This document shows positions 16-64,000 of a DNA stretch of 64,000 nucleotides, piece after piece; positions within the stretch are counted from its first letter, which is position 1; each line of letters begins with the position of its first letter. Made by a program: the position numbers and the translations under genes. Origin of the DNA: an uncultured Kiritimatiellota bacterium. Lineage in GTDB: Bacteria; Verrucomicrobiota; Kiritimatiellia; RFP12; UBA1067. The notes under the pieces are model-generated. The model was not told the DNA's origin. It saw only the letters and a program-made list of their open reading frames with translations, and made no database searches. The DNA lies in contig CAKUCX010000006.1 in assembly GCA_934643865.1 (NCBI GenBank), forward strand, positions 16,936-80,935, read 5' to 3'.

Positions 16-237
16 GGCGCGCGAAGTACCCGCGCCGCCTCGGCACGTGGCGTCCTACCCCCCCCCTGTCTCATATTTCTTCCATGGTCGATTTCCCAAT
101 ATGAGGTTATCGGCCCCTAGCCCACTTTTTATAAAATGTGGGCCAATGTACCCACACAGCCGAAAATCGAAACCATCCATCCGAACGGGCCGTTGCACAG
201 TGCCACGCGCCGAGGCGGCGCGGGTACATCGCGCGCC
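16..237. repeat. Inverted repeat pair, 36-bp arms (16-51 and 202-237), about 150-bp spacer
   Basis: GGCGCGCGAAGTACCCGCGCCGCCTCGGCACGTGGC at 16-51 is the reverse complement of 202-237 with 2 mismatches. It lies at the window edge. Confidence 0.6.
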
Positions 238-28794: not shown

Positions 28795-28817
28795 GTGCCT
28801 GTCTCCTTTTGCCGAGC

Positions 28818-28847
28818 AGTATACCACACGAGCGTTTTGCGGGTCAA
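28818..28847 (-). promoter_or_regulatory. Sigma70-type promoter TTGACC-N18-(TGG)TATACT for the mannitol-DH-family gene
   Basis: On the minus strand, TTGACC is at 28847-28842 and TGGTATACT at 28826-28818. The RBS and ATG follow downstream. Confidence 0.5.
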
Positions 28848-28864
28848 CATGCGCGCCGCGCGAA

Positions 28865-28880
28865 GGGGGGGGGGGGGGGG
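28865..28880. repeat. G16 homopolymer
   Basis: Sixteen consecutive G between the two divergent promoters, at the left edge of the cas remnant. Confidence 0.95.
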
Positions 28881-28887
28881 CAAACTG

Positions 28888-28896
28888 TGCTATACT
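28888..28896 (+). promoter_or_regulatory. TGCTATACT extended -10, 7 nt upstream of ATG 28904 (leaderless-type)
   Basis: The sequence reads TGCTATACT-ACCGAGC-ATG. Confidence 0.45.
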
Positions 28897-28903
28897 ACCG
28901 AGC

Positions 28904-29548
28904 ATGGACGTGAAGCATCTCATTGCCGTGGCCGCCGGCGCGGCGGCGGCCGTGCAGGGACGCCTCTGGCGGCAGGTTGTCCGCGCGAAGATCCTCAACC
29001 AGTCCGAACTGTTGCGCCGTCTGGGATTTGACACATGCCGTCGCCTGCGGGTGATGGCCGACGAGGTGAAGAACTACGATGCGGAGAATGTCGAGGCCCA
29101 GGCGGCGCGCATCTATTTCCGTGCGCTGGCGCCCGATCCCGGATTCGTTCGTGCGCGCGAGGGAACATGGCCGAACCCTGCGCTCAACTACGGCTATGGC
29201 GTCTTGCGGGCGGCCGTCGCCCGTGCGCTTGTCGGTTCCGGGCTCACCTGCTTTCGCGGGGTCCATCACCACAACCGCTACAACGCCTTCTGCCTCGCGG
29301 ATGACATGATGGAACCCTACCGGCCTTTTGTTGATCAGTACGTCTTCGGACATGTTCCGCCTTTCGACGTCCAGGCAACTGAACTGACACGCGAGATGAA
29401 GGCGCGGCTTCTGCAGATGCTGACGTGTGACGTGAAGACGGGTGACCTCAAACGCCCGCTGATGGTCGCCCTGACCTACACGACGGCCTCGCTTGCCAAG
29501 TACTATCTGGGCAAGACCGACCACCTTGTCCTCCCGTCCTTCCTGTGA
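28904..29548 (+). CDS. cas1: Type II Cas1 lacking the N-terminal beta-domain (5'-truncated cas1; ORF still intact)
   Basis: LWRQVVRAKILNQ aligns to SpyCas1 VWTTIIAQKILNQ (around residue 95). Catalytic-region motifs are retained: EAQAARIYF, NYGYGVL, HHHNRYNAF, ADDMMEPYRP. About 90 N-terminal residues have no coding space because the mannitol-DH-family gene is adjacent. Confidence 0.75.
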   Translation: MDVKHLIAVAAGAAAAVQGRLWRQVVRAKILNQSELLRRLGFDTCRRLRVMADEVKNYDAENVEAQAARIYFRALAPDPGFVRAREGTWPNPALNYGYGVLRAAVARALVGSGLTCFRGVHHHNRYNAFCLADDMMEPYRPFVDQYVFGHVPPFDVQATELTREMKARLLQMLTCDVKTGDLKRPLMVALTYTTASLAKYYLGKTDHLVLPSFL

Positions 29549-29892
29549 CGCTCTGTACGCAGACGGCCCTCAACGGATATGCGATTGTGTGGCTCTACGT
29601 GATGTTCGACCTGCCCGTGGAGACCAAGGCGCAGCGCCGCCTGGCGACGCGCTTTCGCAAAGATCTCCTCAAGGACGGCTTTGCCATGCACCAGTATTCC
29701 GTCTACATCCGGCATTGCGCGAGCCATGAGGCCGCAACCGTCCACATCGGACGGATCAAGAGCCTGGTGCCGGACGAGGGACTTGTCTCCATCCTCAAGG
29801 TGACGGACCGCCAGTTCGGCGACACCGTCCAGTTTGTGGGCCGGAAACGGAAGCCGCCTCCGCCGACACCGCTTCAGCTCGAATTTTTCTAG
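29545..29892 (+). CDS. cas2: Type II Cas2
   Basis: WLYVMFDLPVETKAQRRLATRFRKDLLKDGFAMHQYSVY aligns with SpyCas2 [38 protein letters not shown]. The GTG start overlaps the cas1 TGA. Confidence 0.8.
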   Translation: MTLCTQTALNGYAIVWLYVMFDLPVETKAQRRLATRFRKDLLKDGFAMHQYSVYIRHCASHEAATVHIGRIKSLVPDEGLVSILKVTDRQFGDTVQFVGRKRKPPPPTPLQLEFF

Positions 29893-31079: not shown

Positions 31080-31257
31080 GGGCCTATGATAACACAGGAA
31101 CGGGAGAATGACAAGACTACGGTGCGGACGAAATCCTGTTTTCGCCTTGAACCGTCTCATGGAAAACCAACCGCGTCGAGAGCTGTCGCGCGGGGAGCTT
31201 GAAATCCGCCTTTTGGCATGGATGTTCCCCGGCCAAAGCAGCACGCCCGCCTCCCGT

Positions 31258-31396
31258 TGGGCTGGCGACCGGATTGCTTGGGCTGGCAACTGGATTGCGT
31301 GGGCTGGCGACCGGATTGCTTGGGCTGGCGACCGGATTGCTTGGGCTGGCGACTGGATTGCGTGGGCTGGCGACCGGATCGCTTGGGCTGGCGATC
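31258..31396. repeat. 21-bp tandem repeat, about 6.6 copies (TGGGCTGGCGACCGGATTGCT)
   Basis: Units start at 31258, 31279, 31300, 31321, 31342 and 31363, with a partial unit at 31384. Each unit has 0-3 substitutions. Confidence 0.9.
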
Positions 31397-31406
31397 AGGG
31401 CGGGCG

Positions 31407-33617
31407 TCACCGCCGCCCGTCGGGCAAAGGCCGCGTGAAGACGCCGCTTCCCGTGCAGAACATAAAGAGCCGCCCGTCGTCGAGGAAGACGATCCGCTCA
31501 GGCCCGCTCGGAACCTTGAGCCCGTCTTCCAGGACCTCGCAGGACGCCCCCCCGTTGTACGAAACGTAAAGCGCGTCATGGTGGCCGAAGACGACGACGC
31601 CCTTGCGCCGCGCGTCGAAGGCGACGGTCGCGGATCCCGCCGGCGCCCCCTTGAGGGGATGCCAGGTCGCCCCGCCGTCCAGCGTTTCGAGCATCGCCGA
31701 CCCGCACAGGATGAAGCGCCCCGGCACATGGGGGTCGGCAAAGGGGAGGCGGCCCCGCACCCGGCTCGGCATCTCCCGCCACGCGCCGGCCGCGCGGTCG
31801 AGCCGATAGAGCCGGCGCCCGTCCATCGCGCGGAGGATGGCCGAACCGTCGGGGGAAAAGGCCAGTTGGCGGTTGTCGCCCTGCCATTCCTCGTTCTTGA
31901 AGAGCGGCGGCCCCTCCGGCAGGCCCTTCGAGAACCATTCCCAGGAAACCCCGCAGTCCTGCGAGCGGTAGACGCCCCCACGGCCTGGGGCGAGATCGCC
32001 GCCCGCACACACATAGACGTCGTCGTTCACGGGGTCGACCGCCACCGTGAAGACACCGTGGGAGGCCGTGTCGAAGCGCGGATGCCCGTTCTTCCCCGCG
32101 TTGGCCAGCTTCGTCCAGGAGACACCGCCGTCCTCGGAGCGCCACACCGGCGTCTCCCACTTCCCGCCGCACGCATAGAGAAGCCCCCTCGTGCGGACGG
32201 AACAGGCGAGGCTCTTCGCATACGGCCGGGCCTTCGGGCTCGAATACGAGGCGCCCCCGTTCGTTGAGTAAAGATAGCCCATGTCCGCGACGCCGTAGTA
32301 GAGGCGTTCCCGGTCGAAGGGGTCGAACACGAGGCAGGACGAGACCAGCTGCATGATGCCCGTCTGTGCGCTCGTCCAGTTGCGCCCCGCGTCAAACGTC
32401 TCCCAGATGAAGTACCAGTCCGTCGTGAGCCAGTGGTCGGGACGGCGCGGATCGACGACGATCGTGGAGAGTTCCTCCATCTGCCGGCTCGCTTCAAGGC
32501 GCCGCATGTGGCCCTCGGTCTTCGGGTCGCGCAGCCTCAGCGTCTCACGTTCAACGGGCGTCCAACATGCATCCTTCGCCCCGCGGCGGTAGATCCGCCC
32601 GGCATTGCTCCCGATCAGCCAGAAGTCCGGCCCGGCCGCGAGGGCATGGTAGGTCCCCTCGTTGATGTAGCTCCACCGTCCGCGCGGGACATACGGCCGC
32701 AGGCCCTCGCCGAAGTCGTGCCACGTCGCGCCGCCGTCGTCGGACGCCGCCGCCAGAAGCGGCTTCGCCCCCGGTGCCGCATCCACCTGGGCAAACACGC
32801 CGTAGACCCCCACAAGGCGGTCGGCTCCCCGGATCTGGCGGACCTCATAGGGCGATTCGGCGCTCACGCGCGTCCAGGTCTCTCCGCCGTCGTCTGAACG
32901 GTAGAAGCCGCGTTCGCGCGTGCGCCGCCCCCCTAGCCGGATCCGATACGATTCCTGCGCGTCGTAGTCGTGCTTCAGCGACCACGGCGCGCAGGCCCAG
33001 ACGCGGTTCGTCACCGTGGCGTCGTAGCGCACGTCGCTGAACCAGTGGTTCGTCAGCCCCACGTTCTTCCACGTCTCGCCATTGTCGCGGGAGAGGAAGA
33101 GCCCGTCGGACTCGCTCCCCGCCACCAGCTCGTCGGGGTGTACGGGATTCCGCGCCAGGACAAGCCCCATCATGCGGCGCGGCCCGTTTGCATGGTAGCG
33201 CGCCGACAGCGTCTGCCGGAAGGAGATGCCCCCGTCGCGCGAGACGAAGACGCCCCCCTTCCGCCACGGCCCGTCGCCCGCCGCCATGACGAACGTATTC
33301 GCGTCGCGCGGGTCCACGTCGAGCGTCCGCACCATCCCCGCGTTCAGGTCGCGCTGGCCGATCGTCAGGTTTGCGTGCAGCGGGTACCAGGACTTCCCCG
33401 CGTCGTCGCTGCGATAGGGCCCCCCGACGTCCACATAGGTGTACCACACGTTGGGGTCGCTGGGCGCGATGACCACGTTCTGCATGAACCCGCCCCCGTA
33501 GATGGGCAGGACCTTCCAGGGCGTGTCAAGGGCCGTGCGCCGCTGGACGGTCTCGCCCCACGCGGCCAGCGCGCCCCACAGGGCCGCCGTCCAGGCCAGA
33601 AGATGTCTCATTGCCAT
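31407..33617 (-). CDS. BNR/Asp-box repeat beta-propeller protein (GH74/sialidase-like), secreted
   Basis: There are at least 9 Asp-boxes (SDDAGKSW, SRDGGISF, SRDNGETW, SDDGGETW, SDDGGATW, SEDGGVSW, SQDCGVSW, TLDGGATW ...). Signal peptide MAMRHLLAWTAALWGALAAWG. Confidence 0.7.
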   Translation of the reverse strand: MAMRHLLAWTAALWGALAAWGETVQRRTALDTPWKVLPIYGGGFMQNVVIAPSDPNVWYTYVDVGGPYRSDDAGKSWYPLHANLTIGQRDLNAGMVRTLDVDPRDANTFVMAAGDGPWRKGGVFVSRDGGISFRQTLSARYHANGPRRMMGLVLARNPVHPDELVAGSESDGLFLSRDNGETWKNVGLTNHWFSDVRYDATVTNRVWACAPWSLKHDYDAQESYRIRLGGRRTRERGFYRSDDGGETWTRVSAESPYEVRQIRGADRLVGVYGVFAQVDAAPGAKPLLAAASDDGGATWHDFGEGLRPYVPRGRWSYINEGTYHALAAGPDFWLIGSNAGRIYRRGAKDACWTPVERETLRLRDPKTEGHMRRLEASRQMEELSTIVVDPRRPDHWLTTDWYFIWETFDAGRNWTSAQTGIMQLVSSCLVFDPFDRERLYYGVADMGYLYSTNGGASYSSPKARPYAKSLACSVRTRGLLYACGGKWETPVWRSEDGGVSWTKLANAGKNGHPRFDTASHGVFTVAVDPVNDDVYVCAGGDLAPGRGGVYRSQDCGVSWEWFSKGLPEGPPLFKNEEWQGDNRQLAFSPDGSAILRAMDGRRLYRLDRAAGAWREMPSRVRGRLPFADPHVPGRFILCGSAMLETLDGGATWHPLKGAPAGSATVAFDARRKGVVVFGHHDALYVSYNGGASCEVLEDGLKVPSGPERIVFLDDGRLFMFCTGSGVFTRPLPDGRR

Positions 33618-33786
33618 GCTCCTCTCAATGTCCGCCCCGAAGGGGACAACCCAGAACAATCTCGTCGCCATCTTCCCTCTCTTGTCCCCCATGCGCTTCC
33701 CGACCAGCTAGACCCGCCGGAAGACAACGGCCACGCCACGCGCGGCGGGCAGAATCGCCGAATCGCCGTTCCGGCCCTTTCCCCGC

Positions 33787-54405: not shown

Positions 54406-55281
54406 GTCTGTTTGTCCGTTCTGTTCACGGAGGTATTTCGCGCGCACGCGCAGGAACGCGAGGCCGACGAAGGGCACCGTGAGGATGTAGAGGAGCCCCA
54501 CGACGCCGAGCGTGGGCCAGAAGTGCGTGAAGAGGAACGCGACGAGCAGGATGAGCGCGGCCATGGTCGGCAGCAGGTAGGCGCGCGTGAGGTGGACGCC
54601 CTTGAGGGAAATCGTCGGCAGGCGCGAGGCCATGAGCGCGCCGACGAGGAAGAGCATGAACATCGCGAAGGCGGGATGCTGGAGGACGGCGGGGAGGTTG
54701 AGCGCGTCCGGGAGCGACAGGGCCAGCAGGGCGGGCGTGAGGACCATCCAGCAGCCGCCGGGCGCAGGCACGCCGAGGAAGAAGTGCTTCCAGTACGGAA
54801 CCGCGGGCTGTTCGAGCATCGTGTTGAAGCGCGCGAGGCGGAAGGCGTCGCAGAGCGCGTAGAAGAGCGCGAAGGCGAGAAGCGCCTGCTTCGTCTGCAG
54901 CGAGAGGGCGAGGTCGCCGCTCAGCACCCAGAAGTAGAGGAACATCGCCGGCGCGACGCCGAAGTTGACGAAGTCCGCGAGCGAATCGAGCTCGGCGCCG
55001 AGCTTCGAGCTGCACTTCAGGAGGCGCGCGACGCGCCCGTCCATCGCGTCGCAGATGCACGCGACGATGAGGGCGACGAGCGCGAGCTGCCAGTCGCGCG
55101 TCGCGACGGGCTGGCCGGCGAGCGTCTTCGCGTAGTTCGTCGCGCTGAGGGCGATCGCGGTGATGCCGCCGCAGGCGGCCATCGAGGTGATGAGGTTCGG
55201 TACGACCGCGCGCAGCGGGACGCTGTCCTTTCGGGCTTCGTGGTTCTTGCGGCGGCGACCGCGCAGTCTGAATTTGCTCAT
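54400..55281 (-). CDS. pssA: CDP-diacylglycerol--serine O-phosphatidyltransferase
   Basis: The CDP-alcohol phosphatidyltransferase motif DAMDGRVARLLKCSSKLGAELDSLAD is present in a multi-TM protein. Confidence 0.85.
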   Translation of the reverse strand: MSKFRLRGRRRKNHEARKDSVPLRAVVPNLITSMAACGGITAIALSATNYAKTLAGQPVATRDWQLALVALIVACICDAMDGRVARLLKCSSKLGAELDSLADFVNFGVAPAMFLYFWVLSGDLALSLQTKQALLAFALFYALCDAFRLARFNTMLEQPAVPYWKHFFLGVPAPGGCWMVLTPALLALSLPDALNLPAVLQHPAFAMFMLFLVGALMASRLPTISLKGVHLTRAYLLPTMAALILLVAFLFTHFWPTLGVVGLLYILTVPFVGLAFLRVRAKYLREQNGQTDP

Positions 55282-55293
55282 GAGTGAAGGGGA

Positions 55294-55342
55294 AGGTTTT
55301 AGGTTTCAGGTTTCAGGTTCTAGGTTTTAGGTTTTGGGTTTT
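55294..55342. repeat. 7-bp tandem repeat x7 (AGGTTTY)
   Basis: AGGTTTT AGGTTTC AGGTTTC AGGTTCT AGGTTTT AGGTTTT GGGTTTT fills the 69-bp gap between the GH stop and the pssA start. Confidence 0.9.
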
Positions 55343-55350
55343 AGCCAAAC

Positions 55351-57765
55351 CTACCGGGCGGATTTGAGGAGGCGGGGGTTGCGGATCCAGAAGGAACAGG
55401 TCGTGCCCTTGGGGTTGGCACCGAGGCGGATCGCCTTCACGGCGCCGGGCTTCGCGCTGGAAGGGCCGAAGGTGAGGTCGATGCGGCGCGTCTCCCAGCC
55501 CGTGAGCGGGGCGGGGTAGGAGATGAAGCGCGCGTGGCGCGCGGGGTCGGCGAAGACGAGCATGAGGTTCTGACAGGCGAAGTCGTTCTCGACCTTGTCC
55601 TGCGCGCTCTTGACCTCGAACTCGAACATGAGCGCGTCGTCGAAGGCCTCCTCGGGGAGGGTGAGCGTGTAGACGGGGTAGAACCAGCGGTCGGCGGGCT
55701 TCGTCCAGGCGAGGTCGAAGCGCAGGGCCCCTTCGGCTTCATCCCAGACGGCGGCGAAGCGGTCGGCGGAGGTGTTGCGCTGCCAGGCTTTGGGGTCGCG
55801 CCAGTTCCGCAGTACGGTCGTGCGGCAGGTCGCGAGGAACGCCTTCAGGTTGCGTACGGGCATCGCGAGGCGGCTCGTGCGCCGGCCCTCGAAGCGGCCC
55901 GTGAGGACGAGCGGCTCGACGAGCGGCGCGCCCGCGCGCGGGGCGTAGGTGCAGGCGAAGGCGGCCGCGCCCATCGGCGGCAGGGCGATCTCGGCGGGGA
56001 GGCCGGAAAGCGAACCGCCCGCGACGGAGACCGTGCCGCGCTTGGCGACGGGGGAGAGGTTCCAGACCTGGACGCGCAGGCGGCCCGTGTCGGCGCGCAG
56101 TTCGGCGACGGACTTGTGGCTTGCGATGCTAAAGTCGTTCGTGTTGAGGTCGACGCGGAAGACGACGGAGAGGTCTTCGTCCGCCGTCGGGACGGAGGGC
56201 GTGGGCGTGCCGCACGGGAAAGGCGCAATGTCCGCCTTCAGGCCCCGGAGGCCCGAAAGGTAGGCGGTGTAGCGGGTCGCGGTGACGACGTTCGTGGAGA
56301 GGGTGGTGCGCTGTCCGCAGAGGTCGGTGAGCGTGTAGGCGCCGGACGGGGGAATGGGCAGGGTGAGCGTCGCGGCGCCGTCGGGCGTCGCGGCGGCCGT
56401 CTCCGTGGCGGTGTCGACGGGCGACACGCGCCAGAAGGCGAGCGTCTGCGAGCCGTCCGGCTGCGCGAAGAGGTAGCCCTTGAACGCCTCGCCGAGCCGG
56501 ACCTCGCCTTCGAGACGGGCGGCGGCGAGTTCGCGCGTGATCGCGCTCATCGCGGCGTAGGTGGGCTTGACGGTGCCGTCGCGGCGCATCACGCCCCAGT
56601 CCTTTGCGCCGTTGCGTTCGTTGTAGGCGCCGAAGACGAAGAAGTAGTTGCGCGAGACGCCCTGCATCTGGAAGGCGATCTGGCTCTTGGCGTAGAACTC
56701 GGCGTGGATCAGCTCCTGGGCGGGCGAGTGGGCCTTCTGTCCCTTGACCGCGCCGTCTTCGTCCGAATGGCCTTCGAGGTTCGTGCCGCTCTCGGTCATC
56801 CACACGGCGCGGCCCGCGATGCCGGCCTTCTCCATGAAGGCGCGCAGCTCGCGGAAGATGGCGGGGTAGCGGCTGAGCGGGGCGTAGGTATGGAAGTTGA
56901 AGACGTCGGAATACTTCGCCGCGTCGTTCGCGTAGAGGCCCGCGTCGTAGGCGGTGCGCGTCGCGTGGCAGACGGCGCCGGGGAGGACGGGCATCGCGGG
57001 CCGCGCGGCCTTGAAGCCGAGGTAGGCGGCCTTGAGGGCGGCCACGTAGTCCCAGACGGGCTCGGGGGCGAAGGCGATGTCCTGCTCGTTCCAGAACTCC
57101 CAGTCGCCCATGCGGTCGCCGAAGGCGGCGGCGGTGTCGCGGCAGAAGGCGTAGAGGGCGGCGAGGTTGCGGGGAAGCTTCTCGATGCGGTCCATGTAGT
57201 CCGGCACGTCGTGGAACATGCCCGAGACGCGCATGCCGCGCGCCTGGAGCATATCCGCGTTGTACATGTAATAGGAATAGTCGTAGACGCCTGGGCGCGG
57301 ATTCACTTCGGCGGCGCGCAGGCGTTCGCGCACGTGGGCGAGGCCGGTGCGCCAGAGGAGGTCGCTTACGAGGCGGTAGGTGTCGCCGCCGTACCAGGGG
57401 CATTCGAAGCTGCCGGGGTGCGAGACCCAGCTCTGCGCGGAGTCGACGCCGTAGAAGGAATCGTCGGTGCGCACGCGGCCCTCGGGCACCGGCACGACGG
57501 CGAAGGTGGCGTCCGCGCCCGCACCCTTCAGGTGGTAGTAGCCGACGGGACGCTTCCCGAGCGCGGCGCATCCGTCCGGCGCGAAGGTGCCGGAGGCCAG
57601 GGCACGCCCGCGCCAGTCCGTGAGCGTCCACGCCGCCCCGGCGGCGCCGCCCCGCGCGGTCGCCCGCTCCCGGTCCGTGTAGACGTGCCCCGGCGCGTCA
57701 AGGGTCAACTTCGCCTGCCCTGTCAGCAGGACGCCCGCCACCAGCGTAAGGAAGATTGTCTTCAT
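55351..57765 (-). CDS. Secreted glycoside hydrolase, clan GH-A-like TIM barrel with C-terminal beta-sandwich domains
   Basis: Signal peptide MKTIFLTLVAGVLLTG and an acid/base-like DWEFWNEQD. About 804 aa from ATG 57765. The upstream 180 codons of the track ORF are read-through. Confidence 0.5.
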   Translation of the reverse strand: MKTIFLTLVAGVLLTGQAKLTLDAPGHVYTDRERATARGGAAGAAWTLTDWRGRALASGTFAPDGCAALGKRPVGYYHLKGAGADATFAVVPVPEGRVRTDDSFYGVDSAQSWVSHPGSFECPWYGGDTYRLVSDLLWRTGLAHVRERLRAAEVNPRPGVYDYSYYMYNADMLQARGMRVSGMFHDVPDYMDRIEKLPRNLAALYAFCRDTAAAFGDRMGDWEFWNEQDIAFAPEPVWDYVAALKAAYLGFKAARPAMPVLPGAVCHATRTAYDAGLYANDAAKYSDVFNFHTYAPLSRYPAIFRELRAFMEKAGIAGRAVWMTESGTNLEGHSDEDGAVKGQKAHSPAQELIHAEFYAKSQIAFQMQGVSRNYFFVFGAYNERNGAKDWGVMRRDGTVKPTYAAMSAITRELAAARLEGEVRLGEAFKGYLFAQPDGSQTLAFWRVSPVDTATETAAATPDGAATLTLPIPPSGAYTLTDLCGQRTTLSTNVVTATRYTAYLSGLRGLKADIAPFPCGTPTPSVPTADEDLSVVFRVDLNTNDFSIASHKSVAELRADTGRLRVQVWNLSPVAKRGTVSVAGGSLSGLPAEIALPPMGAAAFACTYAPRAGAPLVEPLVLTGRFEGRRTSRLAMPVRNLKAFLATCRTTVLRNWRDPKAWQRNTSADRFAAVWDEAEGALRFDLAWTKPADRWFYPVYTLTLPEEAFDDALMFEFEVKSAQDKVENDFACQNLMLVFADPARHARFISYPAPLTGWETRRIDLTFGPSSAKPGAVKAIRLGANPKGTTCSFWIRNPRLLKSAR

Positions 57766-57772
57766 GGGCGGT

Positions 57773-57781
57773 AGTATAGCA
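57773..57781 (-). promoter_or_regulatory. TGCTATACT extended -10, 7 nt upstream of ATG 57765 (leaderless-type)
   Basis: The minus strand reads TGCTATACT-ACCGCCC-ATG. Confidence 0.45.
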
Positions 57782-57856
57782 AAAATCGGCGCACAGGGTC
57801 TGGACCTTGCCCATCTCGCCGCATCGGCGGCACGCGGACTTTTTCTATTTTCATAA

Positions 57857-57886
57857 TTGACAATCGCAATGGGGGGGGGGTACAAT
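57857..57886 (+). promoter_or_regulatory. Consensus sigma70 promoter TTGACA-N18-TACAAT with a G10 tract inside the spacer
   Basis: TTGACA is at 57857-57862, the spacer ATCGCAAT+G10 at 57863-57880 and TACAAT at 57881-57886. A T-rich stretch lies upstream. AGGAG is at 57934-57938 and the ATG at 57944. Confidence 0.6.
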
Positions 57887-57943
57887 GTTGTTGTTTCGAC
57901 AAACTCGGAACAGGATTTGGAAACACCGAAAACAGGAGAGGCC

Positions 57944-60157
57944 ATGATCGGATGCAGAATGGGGCGTGCGGTACGTTGGGCCATGGGCGCGGCGCTGCTG
58001 GCGTGTGCGGTGCGTGCGTCGGACGCCGTCGAGGACGGGGTGCTGACGCTCGATGCGTCGGATGCGGGACGAACGCTCCAGGCGGCGCTGGCGGCGCGGA
58101 GCCTCGCGCTTGCGGACCTCTCGTCCGTCACGTCGCTCGTCATCGACTGCGTGGGCGTTGTCACGAGCGACGTGGCGTTGGCGGGGTGGTCGGGCGACCT
58201 GCGCATCCGTCCCCAGAGTGTCTTCGAGGTGACGGCGGACGGGGCGCTCGGTACGGCGGACGGGGCAATCTTCATCGAGGACGGCGGGCAGCTGAAGATG
58301 TCCGTCATGACGAAGGCTACATGGAAGCAGACGAAGAAGACGTGTTATTTCGAGGGCGAGGGGCCGGACGGCAACGGCGCGCTCTACTCGATTTCCGCCC
58401 AGCACGAGAACGAGGGCTGCCTGTGGCCCTACCGGCTCGTCATGACGGGCGACGCCACGTGGAAGGCGGCGAATACCTCGCGGACCCAGGATGTCTACGG
58501 CGGGGAACTGGACATGAACGGCCACACGCTCCACTACGGGGTGGATGGACGCTTCCACGGCGTCAAGATCAAGAACCCGGGGCACATCGTCCACTTCTCG
58601 GGCGGGATGCTGATCCAGGGCGGCTGCGACTTCGGCGGCGGCGACACGAACACAATCACGGTGCAGAAGGGGGCGACGATGCGCCAGTGGGGCGGCCCCG
58701 GCGTCACGCCTTGGACGGCGATCTTCAAGCCGGGGTCCAGTCTCTATCCGGGCGCAGGGTCGGGCAACCAGTGGCAGGGTCCCGTCGTTCTGGAGGAGAT
58801 GGTGCCCATGGAGCGGTGGACGGAATGGCCGGGAATGACGTTCTACGGCCCGGTGAGCGGCCCGGGCGGCATCTTCTCCGCCAACAAAGGGGTCTATGGC
58901 GAGCGGATGACGTTGCGCTTCGTCTGTCCGACGAACGACTTCCGGGGCGGTGTCGCGTTGAGGGAATGCGTGCTCGACCTGCCGGTGAACGGCGCGCTGC
59001 CGGCGGACGGCGCAGCGCTCGTGATGACCAATTCGTCCGTGACGCTCTCGGCGGGCGTTGTCTACGACCTGCCGTCGGCGGTCTTCTCCGGGACGGGCAC
59101 CGTCGTGCGCGGATCGGGCGCGTGGCGCGGGAGCGTGACGAAGGAGGAGGCGGGTGAACTCGTCTACGCCTCGGGCGTGGGGGCCGACCTCCTGGACGTG
59201 AAGGGCGGAAGCGTGCGGTTCGCGTGTGACGACAAGGGACTGTACCGGGGCATCGAGGTGGGGACGGTGGCGGACAACACGGCGCTTGCGCTCTTCACCT
59301 CCGATGCCTGTCCCTCGAACGGATGGGCGGCCTTCCCCGAGTATTCCTACCCCGCGATGAACAGTTCGTGGAAGAACTACATGTGCGTGGTCTACACGGG
59401 CTACCTCTGGAACAGGTCGGGCGCGGACGCGGTGTGGACATTCGGGGCCTGCATCGACGACCGCGCACGCCTCATCATCAACGGCGAGACGGTTCTGGAC
59501 TGCACGGCCTGGAACGACCTCAAGTTCGCGCAAGCGACGCTCCGGCCAGGCGCGAACCGGTTCGAGTGGCGTCTGTGCAACGATACGGGCCCGGCGGGCG
59601 GCTCGAACGGCGGCGGCACCCTGAACTGGGAGGCGACGAAGGGCCTCGCCTACCACGTGGGCGCGACGGATTCAAAGGATCCAGCCGACTTCACGGCATT
59701 CACGGCGGATGACGTGGGGACGCTCTTCACGTTCACGGACGGGACGGTGGAGAGTCGACAGGCCCTGCTGCCGGTGTTCGGCACGGTGCGCCTCGCCGCC
59801 GGAACGACGCTGGACCTCGGGGGCGTCGACTACACGGTGAAGGCGATCGAGGGCGTGGGAACCGTGGCGGGCGGTCCGCTCACGGTGACGGAGCGACTGG
59901 TCGCCCCGGCGGCGGCGCTCAAGGCAGGCGGTGTGCTGACGGTCGAGGGGACGCTCGCCTTCGGCGCGGGCTGCGTCCTTGACGTGGACGAGCTGGAGAC
60001 GTTGGCCCACGTGAATGAACTTGTGGTGGCCACGGCGGGGACAATTGCGGGTAAGCCGGCCCTTTCGCCCGCGCTCAAGGCGGCGAACTGGATCGTCGTC
60101 TGCGCGGACGGCAAGGTGACGTTGTGCCGTTCGGGGTTCGCCATCATCTTCCGCTGA
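57944..60157 (+). CDS. Large secreted/surface protein with PA14-like domain and beta-helical passenger-like regions
   Basis: 737 aa with a signal peptide (AMGAALLACAVRA). YTGYLWNRSGADAVWTFGACIDDRARLIINGETVLD is a PA14-like core. Confidence 0.5.
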   Translation: MIGCRMGRAVRWAMGAALLACAVRASDAVEDGVLTLDASDAGRTLQAALAARSLALADLSSVTSLVIDCVGVVTSDVALAGWSGDLRIRPQSVFEVTADGALGTADGAIFIEDGGQLKMSVMTKATWKQTKKTCYFEGEGPDGNGALYSISAQHENEGCLWPYRLVMTGDATWKAANTSRTQDVYGGELDMNGHTLHYGVDGRFHGVKIKNPGHIVHFSGGMLIQGGCDFGGGDTNTITVQKGATMRQWGGPGVTPWTAIFKPGSSLYPGAGSGNQWQGPVVLEEMVPMERWTEWPGMTFYGPVSGPGGIFSANKGVYGERMTLRFVCPTNDFRGGVALRECVLDLPVNGALPADGAALVMTNSSVTLSAGVVYDLPSAVFSGTGTVVRGSGAWRGSVTKEEAGELVYASGVGADLLDVKGGSVRFACDDKGLYRGIEVGTVADNTALALFTSDACPSNGWAAFPEYSYPAMNSSWKNYMCVVYTGYLWNRSGADAVWTFGACIDDRARLIINGETVLDCTAWNDLKFAQATLRPGANRFEWRLCNDTGPAGGSNGGGTLNWEATKGLAYHVGATDSKDPADFTAFTADDVGTLFTFTDGTVESRQALLPVFGTVRLAAGTTLDLGGVDYTVKAIEGVGTVAGGPLTVTERLVAPAAALKAGGVLTVEGTLAFGAGCVLDVDELETLAHVNELVVATAGTIAGKPALSPALKAANWIVVCADGKVTLCRSGFAIIFR

Positions 60158-60245
60158 GGTTACGGTCCGTCGCCGGCGCGGGGACTTTAACCAAAGTCTA
60201 ACCGAATCCACACGCATGCGATTTCCCCCCGCTTCCGCCGATTGG

Positions 60246-63200
60246 CTACTTGCCGCCGGCCGCCAGCGGCCTTTCGCTGACCCAGACCTTGAAGAAGCCG
60301 GACGGGCTGCCGACGGGCTTCCTGACCACGAGACGGGTCGCGGCCGTGGCGGGCGCGGACGCGCCGGGGCAGACGAGCCCGTCCAGCGACGCCGCAGACG
60401 CCGCCGCATAGTAGAGCCCCGGCACGATCTCGACGTTCAGCGTCACGCTCCCCTCGCCGTCTTCCGTCCACGGCCCGTCCGCGATCGCCCCGGATCTCTC
60501 CACCTCGAACGGCGCCTTGAGCGCGACGACCGCCGTCGCGCCGCCGGACGCGATCTCGACCCTGTACGCCTTCCGCGCCACGGGGAAGGCGAAGTCGGAC
60601 TCCGCCAGGGCCACGCCTTCATTCGCCGTCACGACATAGCGGCCGTCACCGCTTTCCGCAATCGTCCCCTTGCCGCCGACGCTGAAGGTCGGCTGGGCAG
60701 GGCCGTCGTGCCATTCGACCGTCATGCCCTGCCACGTGCCGCCCGTCACCTCGTAGGTCGCATTGTTCCTCGGCAGCCGCACGACACAGGCAGCGGAAAC
60801 CCCGTTGAACGCTCCATCCATGTCAACAGTCGGCGCATCGCCGTCAAACGTCACGCTCGTCAGCCCGCTGCAGCCTGAAAACGCATCATACCCGATGCTC
60901 GTCACGCCGGCGGGGATTGTCACGCTGGTCAGACTGCTGCAGTCTTCAAACGCTTCATACCCGATGCTCGTCACGTCGGCGGGGATCGTCACGCCTGTCA
61001 GCCCGCTGCAGCCTTCAAACGCATAGGCCTCGATGCGCGTCACGCCATCGGGGATCGTCACGCCCGTCAGCCCACTGCAGCCGGAGAACGCACCTTTCCC
61101 GATGCGCGTCACGCCGTCGGGGATCGTCACGCCTGTCAGCCCGCTGCAGTCTGAAAACGCCCACTTTCCGATGCTCGTCACGCCGTCGGGGATCGTCACG
61201 CTTGTCAGCCCGCTACAGCCTTCAAACGCCCCTCCCCCGATGCCGCGGATTCCCGTCAGATCCAAGCTGCCGGAAAGAGAATCGGAGCATCCAACCGCCC
61301 ATCCATCGACGAGCTTGACGCCCGAAATCGTGTTCGTGTCAAAGAGCGCGTCGCTGCAGGCAGAGAACGCATTCCACCCGATACTCGTCACGCTGGCGGG
61401 AATCGTCACGCCTGTCAGCCCGCTGCAGCCGGAGAACGCTTCGTCCTCAATGATTGTCACGCCGTCGGGGATCGTCACGTTCGTCAGGCCGCTGCAACCC
61501 TCAAATGCATTCCACCCGATGCTCGTCACGCTGGCGGGGATCGTCATGCCCGTCAGCCCGCTGCAACCGGAGAACGTCCCATCCCCGATGCTCGTCACGC
61601 CGTCGGGGATCGTCACGTCCGTCAGGCCGCTGCAGCCCCCAAACGCATACTCCCCGATGCTCGTCACGCCGTCGGGGATCGTCACGCTTGTCAGCCCGCT
61701 GCAGCCTTCAAACGCCCCGCCCCCGATGCCGCGGATTCCCGTCAGATCCAAGATTCCGGAAAGAGAATCGGAGCATCCAACCGCCCATCCATCGACGAGC
61801 TTGACGCCCGAAATCGTGTTCGTGTCAAAGAGCGCATCGCTGCAGCCGGAGAACGCATTCCACCCGATACTCGTCACGCTGGCGGGGATCGTCATGCTTG
61901 TCAGGCCGCTGCAGCCTGAGAACGCCCAGTCCCCGATGCTCGTCACGCCGTCGGGGATCGTCACGTCCGCCAGCCCGCTGCAGTCTGAGAACGCCCAGTC
62001 CCCGATGCGCGTCACGCTGGCGGGGATTGTTACGCTTGTCAGCCCGCTGCAGCCTGAGAACGCCCCGCCCCCGATGTCCGTTACGCTGGCGGGGATCGTC
62101 ACGTCCGCCAGCCCACTGCAGTCTGAGAACGCCCAGTCCCCGATGTGCGTCACGCTGTCGGGGATCGTCACGCCCGTCAACCCGCTGCAGCCCTGGAACG
62201 CATAGTCCCCGATGCTCGTCACGCCGTTGCCGATCGTCACGCTTGTCAGCCCGCTACATCCCCGGAACGCATAGGCCCCGATGCGCGTCACGCTGGCGGG
62301 GATCGTCACGCTCTCAAGGCCCGCGCAACCTTCGAACGCCCCGTCCTCGATGGATGTCGTGCCGACCGAAATGACAAGGTTGGTCAAATTGTCGAGCGGA
62401 AGGTCACACCGGACTCCCGGCAGGCACGCCTCACGCACGTTGTTGCAGCCGGCAAAAGCCCCATATCCGATGTCCGTCACGTCGGCGGGGATCGTCACGC
62501 TCGTCAGCCCGCTGCAGCCGGCGAACGCCCAGTCCCCGATGTGCGTCACGCTGTCGGGGATCGTCACGCCCGTCAACCCGCTGCAGCCCTGGAACGCATA
62601 GTCCCCGATGCTCGTCACGCCGTTGCCGATCGTCACGCTTGTCAGCCCGCTACATCCCCGGAACGCATAGGCCCCGATGCGCGTCACGCTGGCGGGGATC
62701 GTCACGCTCTCAAGGCCCGCGCAACCTTCGAACGCCCCGTCCTCGATGGATGTCGTGCCGACCGAAATGACAAGGTTGGTCAAATTGTCGAGCGGAAGGT
62801 CACACCGGACTCCCGGCAGGCACGCCTCACGCACGTTGTTGCAGCCGGCAAAAGCCCCATATCCGATGTCCGTCACGTCGGCGGGGATCGTCACGCTCGT
62901 CAGCCCGCTGCAGCCGGCGAACGCCCCATACCCGATGCTCGTCACGCCGTCGGGGATCGTCACGTCCGCCAGCCCGCTGCAGTCTGAGAACGCCCAGTCC
63001 CCGATGCGCGTCACGCTGGCGGGGATTGTTACGCTTGTCAGCCCGCTGCAGCCTGAGAACGCCCCGCCCCCGATGTCCGTTACGCTGGCGGGGATCGTCA
63101 CGTCCGCCAGCCCACTGCAGTCTGAGAACGCCCAGTCCCCGATGTGCGTCACGCTGTCGGGGATCGTCACGCCCGTCAACCCGCTGCAGCCTTTAAACGC

Positions 63201-64000
63201 CCCGCCCCCGATGCCGCGGATTCCCGTCAGATCCAAGATTCCGGAAAGAGAATCGGAGCATCCAACTGCCCATCCATCGACGAGCTTCACGCCTTGAACC
63301 GTGTTCGTGTCAAAGAGCGCATCGCTACATTCTTCAAACGCCCCGATCCCGATGCTCGTCACGCCGTTGCCGATCGTCACGCTTGTCAGCCCACTGCAGC
63401 CGTAAAACGCTCCGTTCCCGATGCGCGTCACGCCGTCGGGGATTGTTACGCTTGTCAGCCCGCTACAGCCGGAGAACGCAGAGGCCCCGATGCTCGTTAC
63501 GCTGGCGGGGATTGCCACGCCTGTCAGCCCACTGCAGTCCTTGAACGCAGAGGCCCCGATGTCCGTCACGCTGACGGGGATCGTCACGCCTGTCAGCCCG
63601 CTGCAGCCGTAGAACGCATAGGCCCCGATGCTCGTCACGCCGTCGGGGATCGTCACGCTTGTCAGCCCGCCGCAATCCTCAAACGCAGAGTCCCCGATGT
63701 GCGTCACGCTGGCGGGGATCGTCACGCCCGTCAACCCGCTGCAGCCCTGGAACGCAGAGGCCCCGATGCTCGTCACGCCGTTGCCAATCGTCACGCCTGT
63801 CAGGCTCTCACAACCGTAGAAAGCGGATTCCCCGATGCTCGTCACGCCGTTGCCGATTGTCACGCTTGTCAGTCCGCTGCAATCCTCAAACGCAGAGTCC
63901 CCGATGTGCGTCACGCTGTCGGGGATCGTCACGCCCGTCAACCCGCTGCAGCCCCGGAACGCATAGGCCCCGATGCTCGTCACGCCGTTGCCGATTGTTA
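60246..64000 (-). CDS. BspA-type leucine-rich-repeat (LRR_5) giant surface protein, 5'-partial (continues beyond window)
   Basis: There are more than 45 repeats of the form IPxxVTxIGxxAFxGCSGLTSVT. The reading frame is still open at 64000. The C-terminal ~190 aa are non-LRR. Confidence 0.85.
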   Translation of the reverse strand, partial: TIGNGVTSIGAYAFRGCSGLTGVTIPDSVTHIGDSAFEDCSGLTSVTIGNGVTSIGESAFYGCESLTGVTIGNGVTSIGASAFQGCSGLTGVTIPASVTHIGDSAFEDCGGLTSVTIPDGVTSIGAYAFYGCSGLTGVTIPVSVTDIGASAFKDCSGLTGVAIPASVTSIGASAFSGCSGLTSVTIPDGVTRIGNGAFYGCSGLTSVTIGNGVTSIGIGAFEECSDALFDTNTVQGVKLVDGWAVGCSDSLSGILDLTGIRGIGGGAFKGCSGLTGVTIPDSVTHIGDWAFSDCSGLADVTIPASVTDIGGGAFSGCSGLTSVTIPASVTRIGDWAFSDCSGLADVTIPDGVTSIGYGAFAGCSGLTSVTIPADVTDIGYGAFAGCNNVREACLPGVRCDLPLDNLTNLVISVGTTSIEDGAFEGCAGLESVTIPASVTRIGAYAFRGCSGLTSVTIGNGVTSIGDYAFQGCSGLTGVTIPDSVTHIGDWAFAGCSGLTSVTIPADVTDIGYGAFAGCNNVREACLPGVRCDLPLDNLTNLVISVGTTSIEDGAFEGCAGLESVTIPASVTRIGAYAFRGCSGLTSVTIGNGVTSIGDYAFQGCSGLTGVTIPDSVTHIGDWAFSDCSGLADVTIPASVTDIGGGAFSGCSGLTSVTIPASVTRIGDWAFSDCSGLADVTIPDGVTSIGDWAFSGCSGLTSMTIPASVTSIGWNAFSGCSDALFDTNTISGVKLVDGWAVGCSDSLSGILDLTGIRGIGGGAFEGCSGLTSVTIPDGVTSIGEYAFGGCSGLTDVTIPDGVTSIGDGTFSGCSGLTGMTIPASVTSIGWNAFEGCSGLTNVTIPDGVTIIEDEAFSGCSGLTGVTIPASVTSIGWNAFSACSDALFDTNTISGVKLVDGWAVGCSDSLSGSLDLTGIRGIGGGAFEGCSGLTSVTIPDGVTSIGKWAFSDCSGLTGVTIPDGVTRIGKGAFSGCSGLTGVTIPDGVTRIEAYAFEGCSGLTGVTIPADVTSIGYEAFEDCSSLTSVTIPAGVTSIGYDAFSGCSGLTSVTFDGDAPTVDMDGAFNGVSAACVVRLPRNNATYEVTGGTWQGMTVEWHDGPAQPTFSVGGKGTIAESGDGRYVVTANEGVALAESDFAFPVARKAYRVEIASGGATAVVALKAPFEVERSGAIADGPWTEDGEGSVTLNVEIVPGLYYAAASAASLDGLVCPGASAPATAATRLVVRKPVGSPSGFFKVWVSERPLAAGGK
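62127..62926. repeat. Perfect 396-bp tandem duplication (2.02 units) inside the LRR gene
   Basis: 62127-62530 reads identically to 62523-62926 in a line-by-line comparison. The encoded 132-aa block is duplicated exactly. Confidence 0.85.

What the first reader, a model, noticed from the sequence alone, without database searches (positions are those of the whole stretch)
57841..57946. Near-consensus promoter with a G10 tract in its spacer: candidate phase-variable switch for a PA14-like surface protein
TTGACA (57857-62) and TACAAT (57881-86) are separated by 18 nt, of which the last 10 are a pure G run. Loss of one G gives the optimal 17-nt spacer, and gain or loss of more should weaken the promoter. 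This is the mechanism established for Neisseria porA/opc and the Haemophilus hif promoters. A T-rich UP-like stretch precedes it. A good RBS (AGGAG) and ATG 57944 of a 737-aa secreted PA14-domain protein follow. That gene is convergent with the giant BspA-like LRR protein, so this corner of the window looks like a variable cell-surface locus.
Basis: partly seen in the sequence, partly recalled or inferred. Interest (0 to 1): 0.7.

Follow-up and report, generated by a model that had tools for sequence, protein, structure and literature searches.

The report
Variable poly-G tract inside a promoter
An uncultured human-gut Kiritimatiellota bacterium carries a run of 9-11 Gs between the two halves of a near-perfect promoter; the run is conserved across related species and is the only base difference between otherwise identical strains, so it is probably a slippage-driven expression switch for a secreted sugar-binding-type protein.

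Summary
TTGACA (57857-62), an 18-nt spacer ending in G10 (57871-80), TACAAT (57881-86), AGGAG and ATG 57944 are all present. This is the only match of at least 11/12 to the sigma-70 consensus in the 64-kb window (0.03 expected).

Ten gut-metagenome contigs encode the identical 737-aa protein. They show no SNPs over 5.3 kb; the only difference is G10 (3 contigs plus the window) versus G11 (7 contigs). Orthologues at 76-95% protein identity keep TTGACA, an uninterrupted G9-G11 run and TA(T/C)AAT, while the flanks diverge or gain a ~600-nt insertion. Spacers are always 17-19 nt.

The organism is an uncultured human-gut Kiritimatiellota. The protein has no Pfam hit above threshold. An AlphaFold model shows a beta-helix plus a PA14-like domain.

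The best reading is transcriptional phase or rheostat variation by slipped-strand mispairing. This is the porA/fetA mechanism in a phylum where it has not been reported. The effect on expression, the TSS and heterogeneity within a population were not tested. A second tract (G16/G17) also varies but is not conserved. Verdict: new member of a known kind, moderate interest.

The parts
57841..57856 (+). AT-rich, UP-element-like stretch (TTTTTCTATTTTCATAA) just upstream of the -35. TTTCATAA is invariant in all orthologues.
   Evidence: Sequence and alignment A2. The 76% clade instead has A9-GATAAC-TTTCATAA. Function is inferred.
57857..57862 (+). -35 hexamer TTGACA, a perfect match to consensus.
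   Evidence: Invariant in all 20+ orthologous sequences.
57863..57870 (+). Non-repeat part of the spacer (ATCGCAAT, 8 nt).
   Evidence: It is ATCGCGAT in the 80% clade and TTTGCGACA (9 nt) in the 76% clade.
57871..57880 (+). Hypermutable G10 homopolymer filling the 3' part of the promoter spacer. It is G9, G10 or G11 in other assemblies.
57881..57886 (+). -10 hexamer TACAAT. It is TATAAT in the clades at 76%, 80% and 92-95% identity, and TGCAAT in one contig (L035).
57887..57943 (+). Predicted 5' leader. The TSS is inferred at about 57893, 7 nt after the -10. The leader holds two ACAGGA motifs; the second overlaps the Shine-Dalgarno AGGAG at 57934-57938.
   Evidence: No significant RNA structure (z = -0.54). 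GC3-like composition is about 52%, against about 87-90% in genes, so the stretch is non-coding (my count). The TSS is not mapped.
57944..60157 (+). Controlled gene: a 737-aa protein with a signal-peptide-like N-terminus, a right-handed beta-helix (~30-440), a PA14-like beta-sandwich (~478-570) and a C-terminal beta-sandwich (610-737).
   Evidence: Translation. Pfam gives nothing at E<=0.01 and PA14 at E=0.024. AlphaFold2 gives pLDDT 82.5 and pTM 0.72. Foldseek matches Hbp/EspP passengers and PA14 domains (6x8a, 5j6y, 3ac0; probability 1.0).
57763..57781 (-). Separate promoter of the divergent gene: an extended -10 TGCTATACT (57781-57773), then 7 nt, then ATG (57765-57763). It is probably leaderless.
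   Evidence: The same TGCTATACT-N7-ATG arrangement occurs at 28888-28906(+), 21134(-) and 5320(-). It is conserved in orthologues.
55351..57765 (-). Divergent 804-aa secreted protein with WEFWNE and WMTESG motifs, resembling a clan GH-A glycoside hydrolase. It stays paired with the 737-aa gene in relatives.
   Evidence: Translation. No Pfam hit. Weak PDB hit 5jvk at E=1e-3. Synteny. The GH assignment is inferred from motifs.
60246..63983 (-). Convergent BspA-type LRR protein of at least 1245 aa. It is the only other part of the locus that differs between strains.
   Evidence: Pfam LRR_5 at E=5e-288. Strain differences are confined to 61401-63160. The gene is absent from relatives at 76-95% identity.

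Best explanation
The G run is a contingency (simple-sequence-repeat) switch built into the core promoter of the 737-aa gene.

Shown:
- The run lies between a perfect TTGACA and a TA(T/C)AAT hexamer.
- Its length differs (9, 10 or 11) between strains that are otherwise identical or nearly so.
- The run and both hexamers are conserved across several species-level lineages of gut Kiritimatiellota.

Inferred from established knowledge:
- Slipped-strand mispairing at a G run of 9 or more adds or removes single Gs at high frequency during replication.
- Each change alters the -35/-10 spacing (17, 18 or 19 nt), and therefore the distance and angular register of the two hexamers for sigma-70 regions 4.2 and 2.4.
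- This promoter lacks the TG extension found on most other promoters of this genome, so it should depend on the -35 and be sensitive to spacer length.
- Expression should therefore step between high (17-18 nt) and low or off (19 nt, or 16 nt and below), reversibly and heritably. That would produce mixed populations expressing or not expressing a secreted beta-helix/PA14 glycan-binding-type protein.
- Which length is 'on' is unknown. Two other good promoter candidates in the window use 18 nt.
For: Promoter quality:
- It is the only match of at least 11/12 in 64 kb, against 0.03 expected.
- Several sister clades (76%, 80%, 92-95% identity) have a 12/12 match with TATAAT.

Length polymorphism:
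- Ten contigs encode the identical protein. They come from three assembly pipelines plus one separate SPAdes contig (L002), and both lengths occur within each of the three pipelines.
- They show 0 SNPs and no other indel over 54944-60245. Seven have G11 and three have G10.
- In the 92-95% clade, two leader haplotypes each carry more than one length: G9/G9/G11 and G9/G10. Length changes therefore recurred.

Conservation:
- TTTCATAATTGACA, a run of at least G9, and TA(T/C)AAT(G/A)TTG are invariant down to 76% protein identity.
- This holds although the leader is 40 nt longer, the upstream DNA is unrelated, and a ~600-nt insertion separates the divergent genes.
- The total spacer stays at 17-19 nt even where the non-G part is 9 nt rather than 8 (8+G9-11 versus 9+G9).

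Contrast and context:
- The G16 tract at 28865 also varies (16/17). It is absent from orthologous loci at 88-95% identity, so conservation is not automatic for such tracts.
- Other promoters here are TGCTATACT extended -10 types. The focal promoter has no TG and has a full -35.
- The mechanism has precedent: fetA poly-C and porA poly-G between the -10 and -35 (PMC5320596).
Against: - No transcript data are available, so the TSS and the sigma factor are inferred from an E. coli-type consensus in a phylum with no mapped promoters.
- No reads were available, so heterogeneity within one population, and the switching rate and its reversibility, were not seen.
- G10-11 runs are error-prone for Illumina sequencing and for assemblers.
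- The ten contigs may include the same samples assembled by different pipelines. Each of the three pipelines shows one G10 and two G11, so the number of independent samples may be as low as about 4-5.
- The commonest state in the window clade is the 19-nt spacer, which would be a weak promoter. That fits an 'off' majority, but it also fits the tract length mattering little.
- One relative (L035) has G9 with TGCAAT, having lost the -11 A. Ordinary point mutation therefore also silences this promoter.
Confidence: 0.62

Rival explanations
1. The promoter is real but the length differences are technical. Homopolymer miscalls in Illumina reads, or assembler choices, produce G9, G10 or G11. The conserved G run would then be a static, GC-rich spacer feature and not a switch.
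For: Differences are only plus or minus 1-2 nt, and they lie in exactly the kind of sequence that sequencing and assembly get wrong. The unrelated G16 tract also differs by 1 nt between two contigs that are otherwise identical. No read-level data could be examined.
Against: Both lengths occur within each of three separate pipelines: MEGAHIT k141, MERR22 scaffolds and Logan. Consensus calls at 20-40x coverage normally report the dominant length. An uninterrupted run of at least G9, kept across lineages whose flanking bases have diverged, is hard to explain without selection for the run itself. Any real G10 tract is also hypermutable, on established knowledge.
Confidence: 0.15
2. The tract is truly hypermutable and does change promoter strength, but this is a tolerated by-product with no adaptive bet-hedging role. 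Alternatively it acts as a slowly drifting 'tuning knob' and not as an on/off phase switch.
For: Only three adjacent lengths were seen, all giving spacers (17-19 nt) that can retain some activity. L035 shows ordinary promoter decay (TGCAAT). The protein may be a glycan-processing factor rather than an antigen, since its neighbours are GH-like, rhamnosidase and esterase genes.
Against: A neutral tract should be interrupted by substitutions over the divergence seen here. The leader and upstream DNA changed a great deal while the run stayed pure.
Confidence: 0.15
3. Translational switching. The tract directly follows an ATG (57869-71). At G10 that ATG is in frame with the main ORF and would add 25 residues. 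At G9 it opens a 25-codon uORF ending in ATGA at the main start. Tract length would then act on translation and not on transcription.
For: The frame relations were computed. A CATAAT hexamer (57852-57857) lies 11 nt upstream, and leaderless genes are common in this genome.
Against: - The 76% clade has ACA and not AT before the run, so there is no ATG, yet it keeps both hexamers and the run.
- L017 has G10 but is out of frame because of a 1-nt leader deletion.
- The putative extension has about 52% GC3 against about 87-90% in genes.
- It would bury the signal peptide.
- A conserved AGGAG-N5-ATG serves the main start.
- The leaderless genes here have 7 nt, not 11 nt, between the -10 and the ATG.
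Confidence: 0.03
4. The tract acts on the divergent 804-aa gene, or on a shared regulator site, by changing the helical phasing between the two back-to-back promoters.
For: The two genes are divergent and only 178 nt apart, and they stay paired in most relatives.
Against: The 804-aa gene has its own extended -10, leaderless promoter about 93 nt from the tract. In L036 a ~600-nt insertion separates the genes, and the tract stays with the 737-aa gene's core promoter. No regulator site was identified.
Confidence: 0.05

Closest known systems
Neisseria fetA (frpB) poly-C and porA poly-G promoter-spacer tracts (Carson 2000; van der Ende 1995, as summarised in PMC5320596)
   Same: A G/C homopolymer of about 9-14 nt lies between the -35 and -10 of a sigma-70 promoter. 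Length differs between strains. The gene encodes an exported or surface protein. Spacing changes grade transcription.
   Different: The phylum differs (Kiritimatiellota, PVC group, versus Betaproteobacteria), and this is an uncultured gut commensal. The product is a beta-helix/PA14 protein and not a porin or TonB receptor. Nothing has been measured here: TSS, expression and switching rate are all unknown. There is no sequence homology, so this is an analogue and not a relative.
Haemophilus influenzae hifA/hifB fimbrial promoter (TA repeats) and Neisseria opc (poly-C); from my own knowledge
   Same: Repeat-number changes in overlapping or adjacent promoter elements give on, intermediate and off states. 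hif also lies between divergent genes.
   Different: hif uses a dinucleotide repeat that serves both divergent promoters. Here the divergent gene has its own promoter about 93 nt away and seems uncoupled.
Treponema pallidum tpr subfamily II/tprL poly-G tracts upstream of the TSS (PMC7864442 and earlier work by Giacani et al., the latter from my own knowledge)
   Same: Poly-G tracts of variable length in the promoter regions of putative outer-membrane or surface protein genes, in an organism that is not routinely cultured. The inference comes from sequence variation plus reporter assays.
   Different: In T. pallidum the effect of length on transcription was measured. Here it was not.
Akkermansia muciniphila long homopolymers (PMC3048395)
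   Same: A human-gut member of the PVC superphylum in which mononucleotide repeats were proposed to mediate phase variation.
   Different: Those tracts are inside coding regions (capsule genes) and the proposal was speculative. No promoter-spacer tract and no strain polymorphism were reported there.
Invertible promoters (invertons) of gut Bacteroidota
   Same: Heritable, reversible on/off control of surface or glycan-related genes in gut commensals.
   Different: The mechanism is different. No inverted repeats flank this promoter and no invertase gene is adjacent.

Membership tests
SSR-mediated transcriptional phase variation (promoter-spacer homopolymer type: porA, fetA, opc) | A homopolymer or SSR lies between the -35 and -10 hexamers of the promoter that drives the gene. 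| tested here: met
   TTGACA-N8-G10-TACAAT scores 11/12. It is the only such site in 64 kb (0.03 expected) and is conserved in orthologues. The position is defined by consensus, not by a mapped TSS.
SSR-mediated transcriptional phase variation (promoter-spacer homopolymer type: porA, fetA, opc) | Tract length is polymorphic among closely related strains while the surrounding sequence is constant. | tested here: met
   G10 versus G11 is the only difference in 5.3-8.4 kb among 11 contigs. G9, G10 and G11 occur in the 92-95% clade and recur on two haplotypes. Caveats: these are assembly consensus sequences, and sample independence is uncertain.
SSR-mediated transcriptional phase variation (promoter-spacer homopolymer type: porA, fetA, opc) | Mixed tract lengths occur within one clonal population, with high-frequency reversible switching. 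| not testable with these tools
   Raw reads and cultures were not available.
SSR-mediated transcriptional phase variation (promoter-spacer homopolymer type: porA, fetA, opc) | Tract length changes the transcript or protein level. | not testable with these tools
   This is inferred from the spacing dependence of sigma-70 promoters, and from the absence of a TG extension that could compensate.
SSR-mediated transcriptional phase variation (promoter-spacer homopolymer type: porA, fetA, opc) | The controlled gene encodes a surface-exposed or secreted product. | tested here: inconclusive
   The N-terminus looks like a signal peptide (basic residues, then a hydrophobic stretch, then AVRA|SD), and LLAC may be a lipobox. 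The beta-helix resembles autotransporter passengers and is followed by a PA14-like domain. Localisation is predicted only, and no signal-peptide predictor was run.
PA14 domain proteins (Pfam PF07691) | The sequence matches the PA14 profile above the gathering threshold. | tested here: not met
   E=0.024 and 14.9 bits against a cut-off of 24, covering residues 478-525 only. No hit at E<=0.01.
PA14 domain proteins (Pfam PF07691) | The protein has a PA14 beta-barrel/sandwich fold. | tested here: met
   The AlphaFold2 model has pLDDT about 73-88 over 480-550. Foldseek gives probability 1.0 to the MpIBP PA14 domain (6x8a, 6x8d: rmsd 2.9 A over 112 columns), 5j6y, K. marxianus GH3 PA14 (3ac0), Cea1A (5a3l) and anthrax PA (4h2a). 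The E-values are weak (about 1e-2) because the whole chain was used as the query.
Invertible-promoter (inverton) switches | Inverted repeats flank the promoter segment. | tested here: not met
   Only weak GC-rich pairs (70-81% complementary) were found in coding DNA around 57600-58100.

The most novel reading that the evidence does not exclude
Gut Kiritimatiellota keep a conserved poly-G contingency promoter that toggles or grades a secreted beta-helix/PA14 glycan-binding protein. If so, this would be the first SSR-type transcriptional phase variation I could find documented in the PVC superphylum. It would also be visible directly in human (Hadza and other) metagenomes, where the dominant tract length could be followed against diet, IgA or phage pressure.
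Probability: 0.5. Interest if true: 0.55.

Novelty: new member of a known kind. Interest (0 to 1): 0.48.

Why it matters
Phase variation by simple-sequence repeats has been studied mostly in a few pathogens: Neisseria, Haemophilus, Campylobacter, Helicobacter, Mycoplasma and Treponema. In gut commensals the known switches are mostly DNA inversions.

This locus is a clean, conserved, strain-polymorphic promoter-spacer tract in an uncultured gut phylum with no genetics and no mapped promoters. It offers three things:
- a testable marker of population heterogeneity in metagenomic reads;
- indirect evidence that E. coli-type -35/-10 promoters operate in Kiritimatiellota alongside the dominant extended -10, leaderless type;
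- a pointer to a protein family of unknown function (beta-helix plus PA14, about 20 clusters) whose expression is evidently costly in some conditions.

It does not reveal a new mechanism.

Tried and rejected
- Pfam and NCBIfam gave no family above threshold for the 737-aa and 804-aa proteins. A PDB sequence search with the family profile found nothing meaningful.
- Inverton hypothesis: no flanking inverted repeats.
- Sigma-54 promoter: reading the sequence shows no GG-N10-GC arrangement.
- Leader riboswitch or structure: the fold z-score is -0.54, and Rfam has no hit in the window.
- ATG-polyG translational model: rejected because neither the frame nor the ATG is conserved.
- 'Several conserved contingency tracts in this genome': the G16 tract varies but is missing from three orthologous loci at 88-95% identity. 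This idea is not supported from the window.
- The promoter core (TTTCATAATTGACA) is not repeated elsewhere in the window, so it is not a mobile promoter cassette.
- Look-ups of the cluster representatives P0001 and P0002 gave only one contig each. The 491-member cluster could therefore not be mined for more tract lengths.
- The literature search found no paper combining Kiritimatiellae with phase variation.
Full report

Yes. One search shows TTGACA at 57857-62 and an 18-nt spacer made of ATCGCAAT plus G10 (57871-80). TACAAT follows at 57881-86. An AT-rich stretch lies upstream at 57841-56. AGGAG (57934-38) sits 5 nt before ATG 57944, and the ORF runs to 60157 (737 aa).

- The consensus scan scores the site 11/12.
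- Scanning both strands of all 64 kb with spacers of 16-19 nt, it is the only site scoring at least 11/12. Sixty first-order Markov simulations averaged 0.03 such sites.
- The window is 66% G+C. G/C run lengths fall off geometrically (94 runs of 5, 16 of 6, 2 of 7, none of 8). Three outliers follow: C9 (58-66), G10 (57871-80) and G16 (28865-80).

**2. Organism and context**

Orthologous loci come from uncultured human-gut Kiritimatiellota (UMGS1035; a Hadza 'Kiritimatiellaeota' MAG). The exact protein is found in Hadza and other gut metagenomes.

The window holds two kinds of gene:
- glycan-degradation genes: rhamnosidase, GDSL/GxDLY esterases, a BNR protein and a mannitol-dehydrogenase-family enzyme;
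- defence genes: an Eco57I-type methylase, AAA-PDDEXK, a Schlafen/AlbA_2 protein and cas1-cas2.

The gene divergent from the focal one (55351-57765, minus strand, 804 aa) has no Pfam hit. It carries WEFWNE and WMTESG motifs typical of clan GH-A glycosidases (inference) and a weak PDB hit, 5jvk.

**3. What promoters look like in this genome**

Four genes in the window have TGCTATACT followed by exactly 7 nt and then ATG, an extended -10 that is probably leaderless. One of them is the divergent 804-aa gene. Relatives show TGCTATACT or TGCTATAAT as well. Promoters with a recognisable -35 are rarer: TTGACC-18-TGGTATACT and TTGACG-18-TATACT.

The focal promoter is unusual on two counts. It has a perfect -35 and it has no TG extension. 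On established sigma-70 knowledge, that is the class whose activity depends on spacer length.

**4. Does the tract vary?**

The exact 737-aa protein is encoded on 11 contigs, of which 10 were retrieved.
- Over window 54944-60245 all ten have zero substitutions. The only difference is the G run: G11 in seven contigs and G10 in three, with the window also G10.
- Both lengths occur within each of three pipelines: MEGAHIT k141, MERR22 scaffolds and Logan.
- Each of those three pipelines shows one G10 and two G11. The contigs may therefore be the same few samples assembled three times. That would reduce independence, but it would make the calls reproducible.

In the sister clade at 92-95% identity, where the -10 is TATAAT, I found G9 (L020, L028, L029), G10 (L022) and G11 (L016, which is the same contig as L021). 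Two leader haplotypes each carry more than one length, so changes recurred.

Other clades give these lengths:
- 83% clade: G10 (L017), and G9 with TGCAAT (L035);
- 80% clade: G10 in three contigs (L024-26);
- 76% clade: G9 after a 9-nt non-G part, in three contigs (L018, L036, L037).

The resulting spacers are 17 nt (4 contigs), 18 nt (12) and 19 nt (8). No other spacer length was seen.

**5. Is the tract conserved?**

Alignment A2 shows TTTCATAATTGACA, a run of at least G9, and TA(T/C)AAT(G/A)TTG to be invariant.

In the 76% clade the leader is 40 nt longer and the upstream DNA is unrelated. In L036 a ~600-nt GC-rich insertion lies between the divergent genes, yet the core promoter and its tract stay next to the 737-aa gene.

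More distant homologues do not share the arrangement. A 46% homologue uses a TGATATACT-N7-ATG leaderless promoter without any tract. At the 50% homologue the upstream DNA is coding.

The G16 tract at 28865 gives a useful contrast. It lies between the mannitol-DH-family promoter and a short cas1-cas2 module. It also varies (C16 versus C17 is the only difference in 4.6 kb). But it is absent from orthologous loci at 95%, 90% and 88% identity, which have other neighbours. Hypermutability is therefore generic to long tracts, whereas conservation is specific to the focal tract.

**6. The product**

- Pfam gives nothing at E<=0.01 and PA14 at E=0.024.
- The family is small: 21 clusters, one of them annotated Kiritimatiellae, and some fused to ECF-sigma domains.
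- AlphaFold2 on a 20-sequence alignment gives pLDDT 82.5 and pTM 0.72.
- The model has a disordered, signal-like N-terminus (1-26), a right-handed beta-helix (~30-440), a beta-sandwich at ~478-570 and a C-terminal beta-sandwich (610-737).
- Foldseek matches the helix to autotransporter passengers (Hbp, EspP). It matches the middle domain to PA14 domains (MpIBP 6x8a/6x8d, 5j6y, GH3 3ac0, Cea1A, anthrax PA) with probability 1.0.

'Secreted PA14-like protein' is therefore acceptable at the fold level. It could be an adhesin or a glycan-binding or glycan-processing factor.

**7. Mechanism**

The best-supported reading is slipped-strand mispairing in the G run, which changes the -35/-10 spacing between 17, 18 and 19 nt and so grades or switches transcription. 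The same principle operates at fetA and porA in Neisseria (PMC5320596).

- Shown: the position of the tract, its polymorphism and its conservation.
- Inferred: the TSS (about 57893), the use of sigma-70, the effect of length on expression, reversibility, and any adaptive value.

**8. Rivals**

- Technical length calls cannot be excluded without reads. They do not explain why a pure run is conserved.
- A neutral 'tuning' tract remains possible.
- The ATG-polyG translational reading fails on conservation.
- Coupling to the divergent gene is unlikely.
- There are no inverted repeats, which rules out an inverton, and no leader structure.

**9. Novelty**

The mechanism is classical. I found no paper linking Kiritimatiellae to phase variation. 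For the related gut genus Akkermansia, only a speculative remark exists, and it concerns tracts inside coding regions (PMC3048395). I therefore rate this a new member of a known kind. It is of moderate interest, mainly because it can be tested directly in existing metagenomic reads.

Noticed in passing
window 28865-28880 (with 28794-28906): A G16 tract lies between two divergent promoters. One is TTGACC-18-TGGTATACT, serving a mannitol-dehydrogenase-family gene (minus strand, ATG 28794). The other is TGCTATACT-N7-ATG, serving a short cas1. The tract is C17 in L030 and C16 in L031, the only difference in 4.6 kb. It is absent from orthologous loci at 88-95% identity, where other genes (MatE, RelB, GH115) sit instead of cas1-cas2.
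   Followed up: yes
window 28904-29892: cas1 is only 214 aa and matches Cas1 profile positions 99-256 of 283. It is followed by cas2 (115 aa). No CRISPR array lies within 2.7 kb, and no other cas gene was recognised. This may be an orphan or degenerate adaptation module, apparently inserted in this lineage only.
   Followed up: partly
window 16-237: A 36-nt inverted repeat (16-51 and 202-237, 94% complementary) encloses 150 nt of AT-rich DNA. The enclosed segment contains the C9 tract (58-66) and the palindrome GCCCACTTTTTATAAAATGTGGGC (120-143). It could be an invertible segment or a MITE-like element. It sits at the window edge, so the left-hand context is missing.
   Followed up: partly
window 31236-31424: A 21-nt tandem repeat (TTGGGCTGGCGACCGGATTGC) occurs in about 8 copies next to, or overlapping, the 3' end of the BNR/Sortilin-type gene at 31407-33692 (minus strand). 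It may be a VNTR or a 7-residue protein repeat.
   Followed up: no
window 5320, 21134, 28891, 57778 (also L023, L032, L034): The motif TGCTATACT-N7-ATG recurs. Extended -10 promoters placed to give leaderless mRNAs appear to be the common promoter type in this Kiritimatiellota lineage.
   Followed up: partly
window 60246-63983 (minus strand): The BspA-type LRR gene is the only other region that differs between strains. There are 57-584 differences confined to 61401-63160, and the called gene lengths range from 537 aa to more than 1245 aa. Contigs tend to end inside it. It is absent from relatives at 76-95% identity. The cause could be real repeat recombination or assembly collapse; I could not tell which.
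   Followed up: partly
window 57905-57938; L018 and L036 leaders: The 5' leader carries two ACAGGA motifs, one overlapping the Shine-Dalgarno sequence. The longer leaders of the 76% and 68% clades carry many (A/C)CAGG repeats. This resembles CsrA-type binding motifs, but that is speculative.
   Followed up: no
window 60137-60157; L019, L023: The 737-aa family ends in G-x-x-I-I-F-R at the C-terminus. Similar hydrophobic-then-R ends occur on unrelated neighbouring ORFs in L019 (VTVLIVR) and L023 (GTTIIFR). This may be a lineage-specific C-terminal sorting or beta-strand motif.
   Followed up: no
L035 332-346: One contig of the 83% clade has G9 followed by TGCAAT instead of TACAAT. The loss of the conserved -11 A suggests a promoter-down point mutation at the same locus.
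   Followed up: no
L036 2203-3000: In the 76% clade, a ~600-nt GC-rich insertion with internal inverted and direct repeats (GTCCGCGAACGCGCCGCGCG...) lies between the divergent genes. It looks MITE-like.
   Followed up: no
P0013-P0015 (homologues of the 737-aa protein): Distant homologues (27% identity, 1023-1044 aa) carry N-terminal ECF sigma-factor domains (PF04542, PF04545, PF08281) fused to this beta-helix/PA14 module.
   Followed up: no
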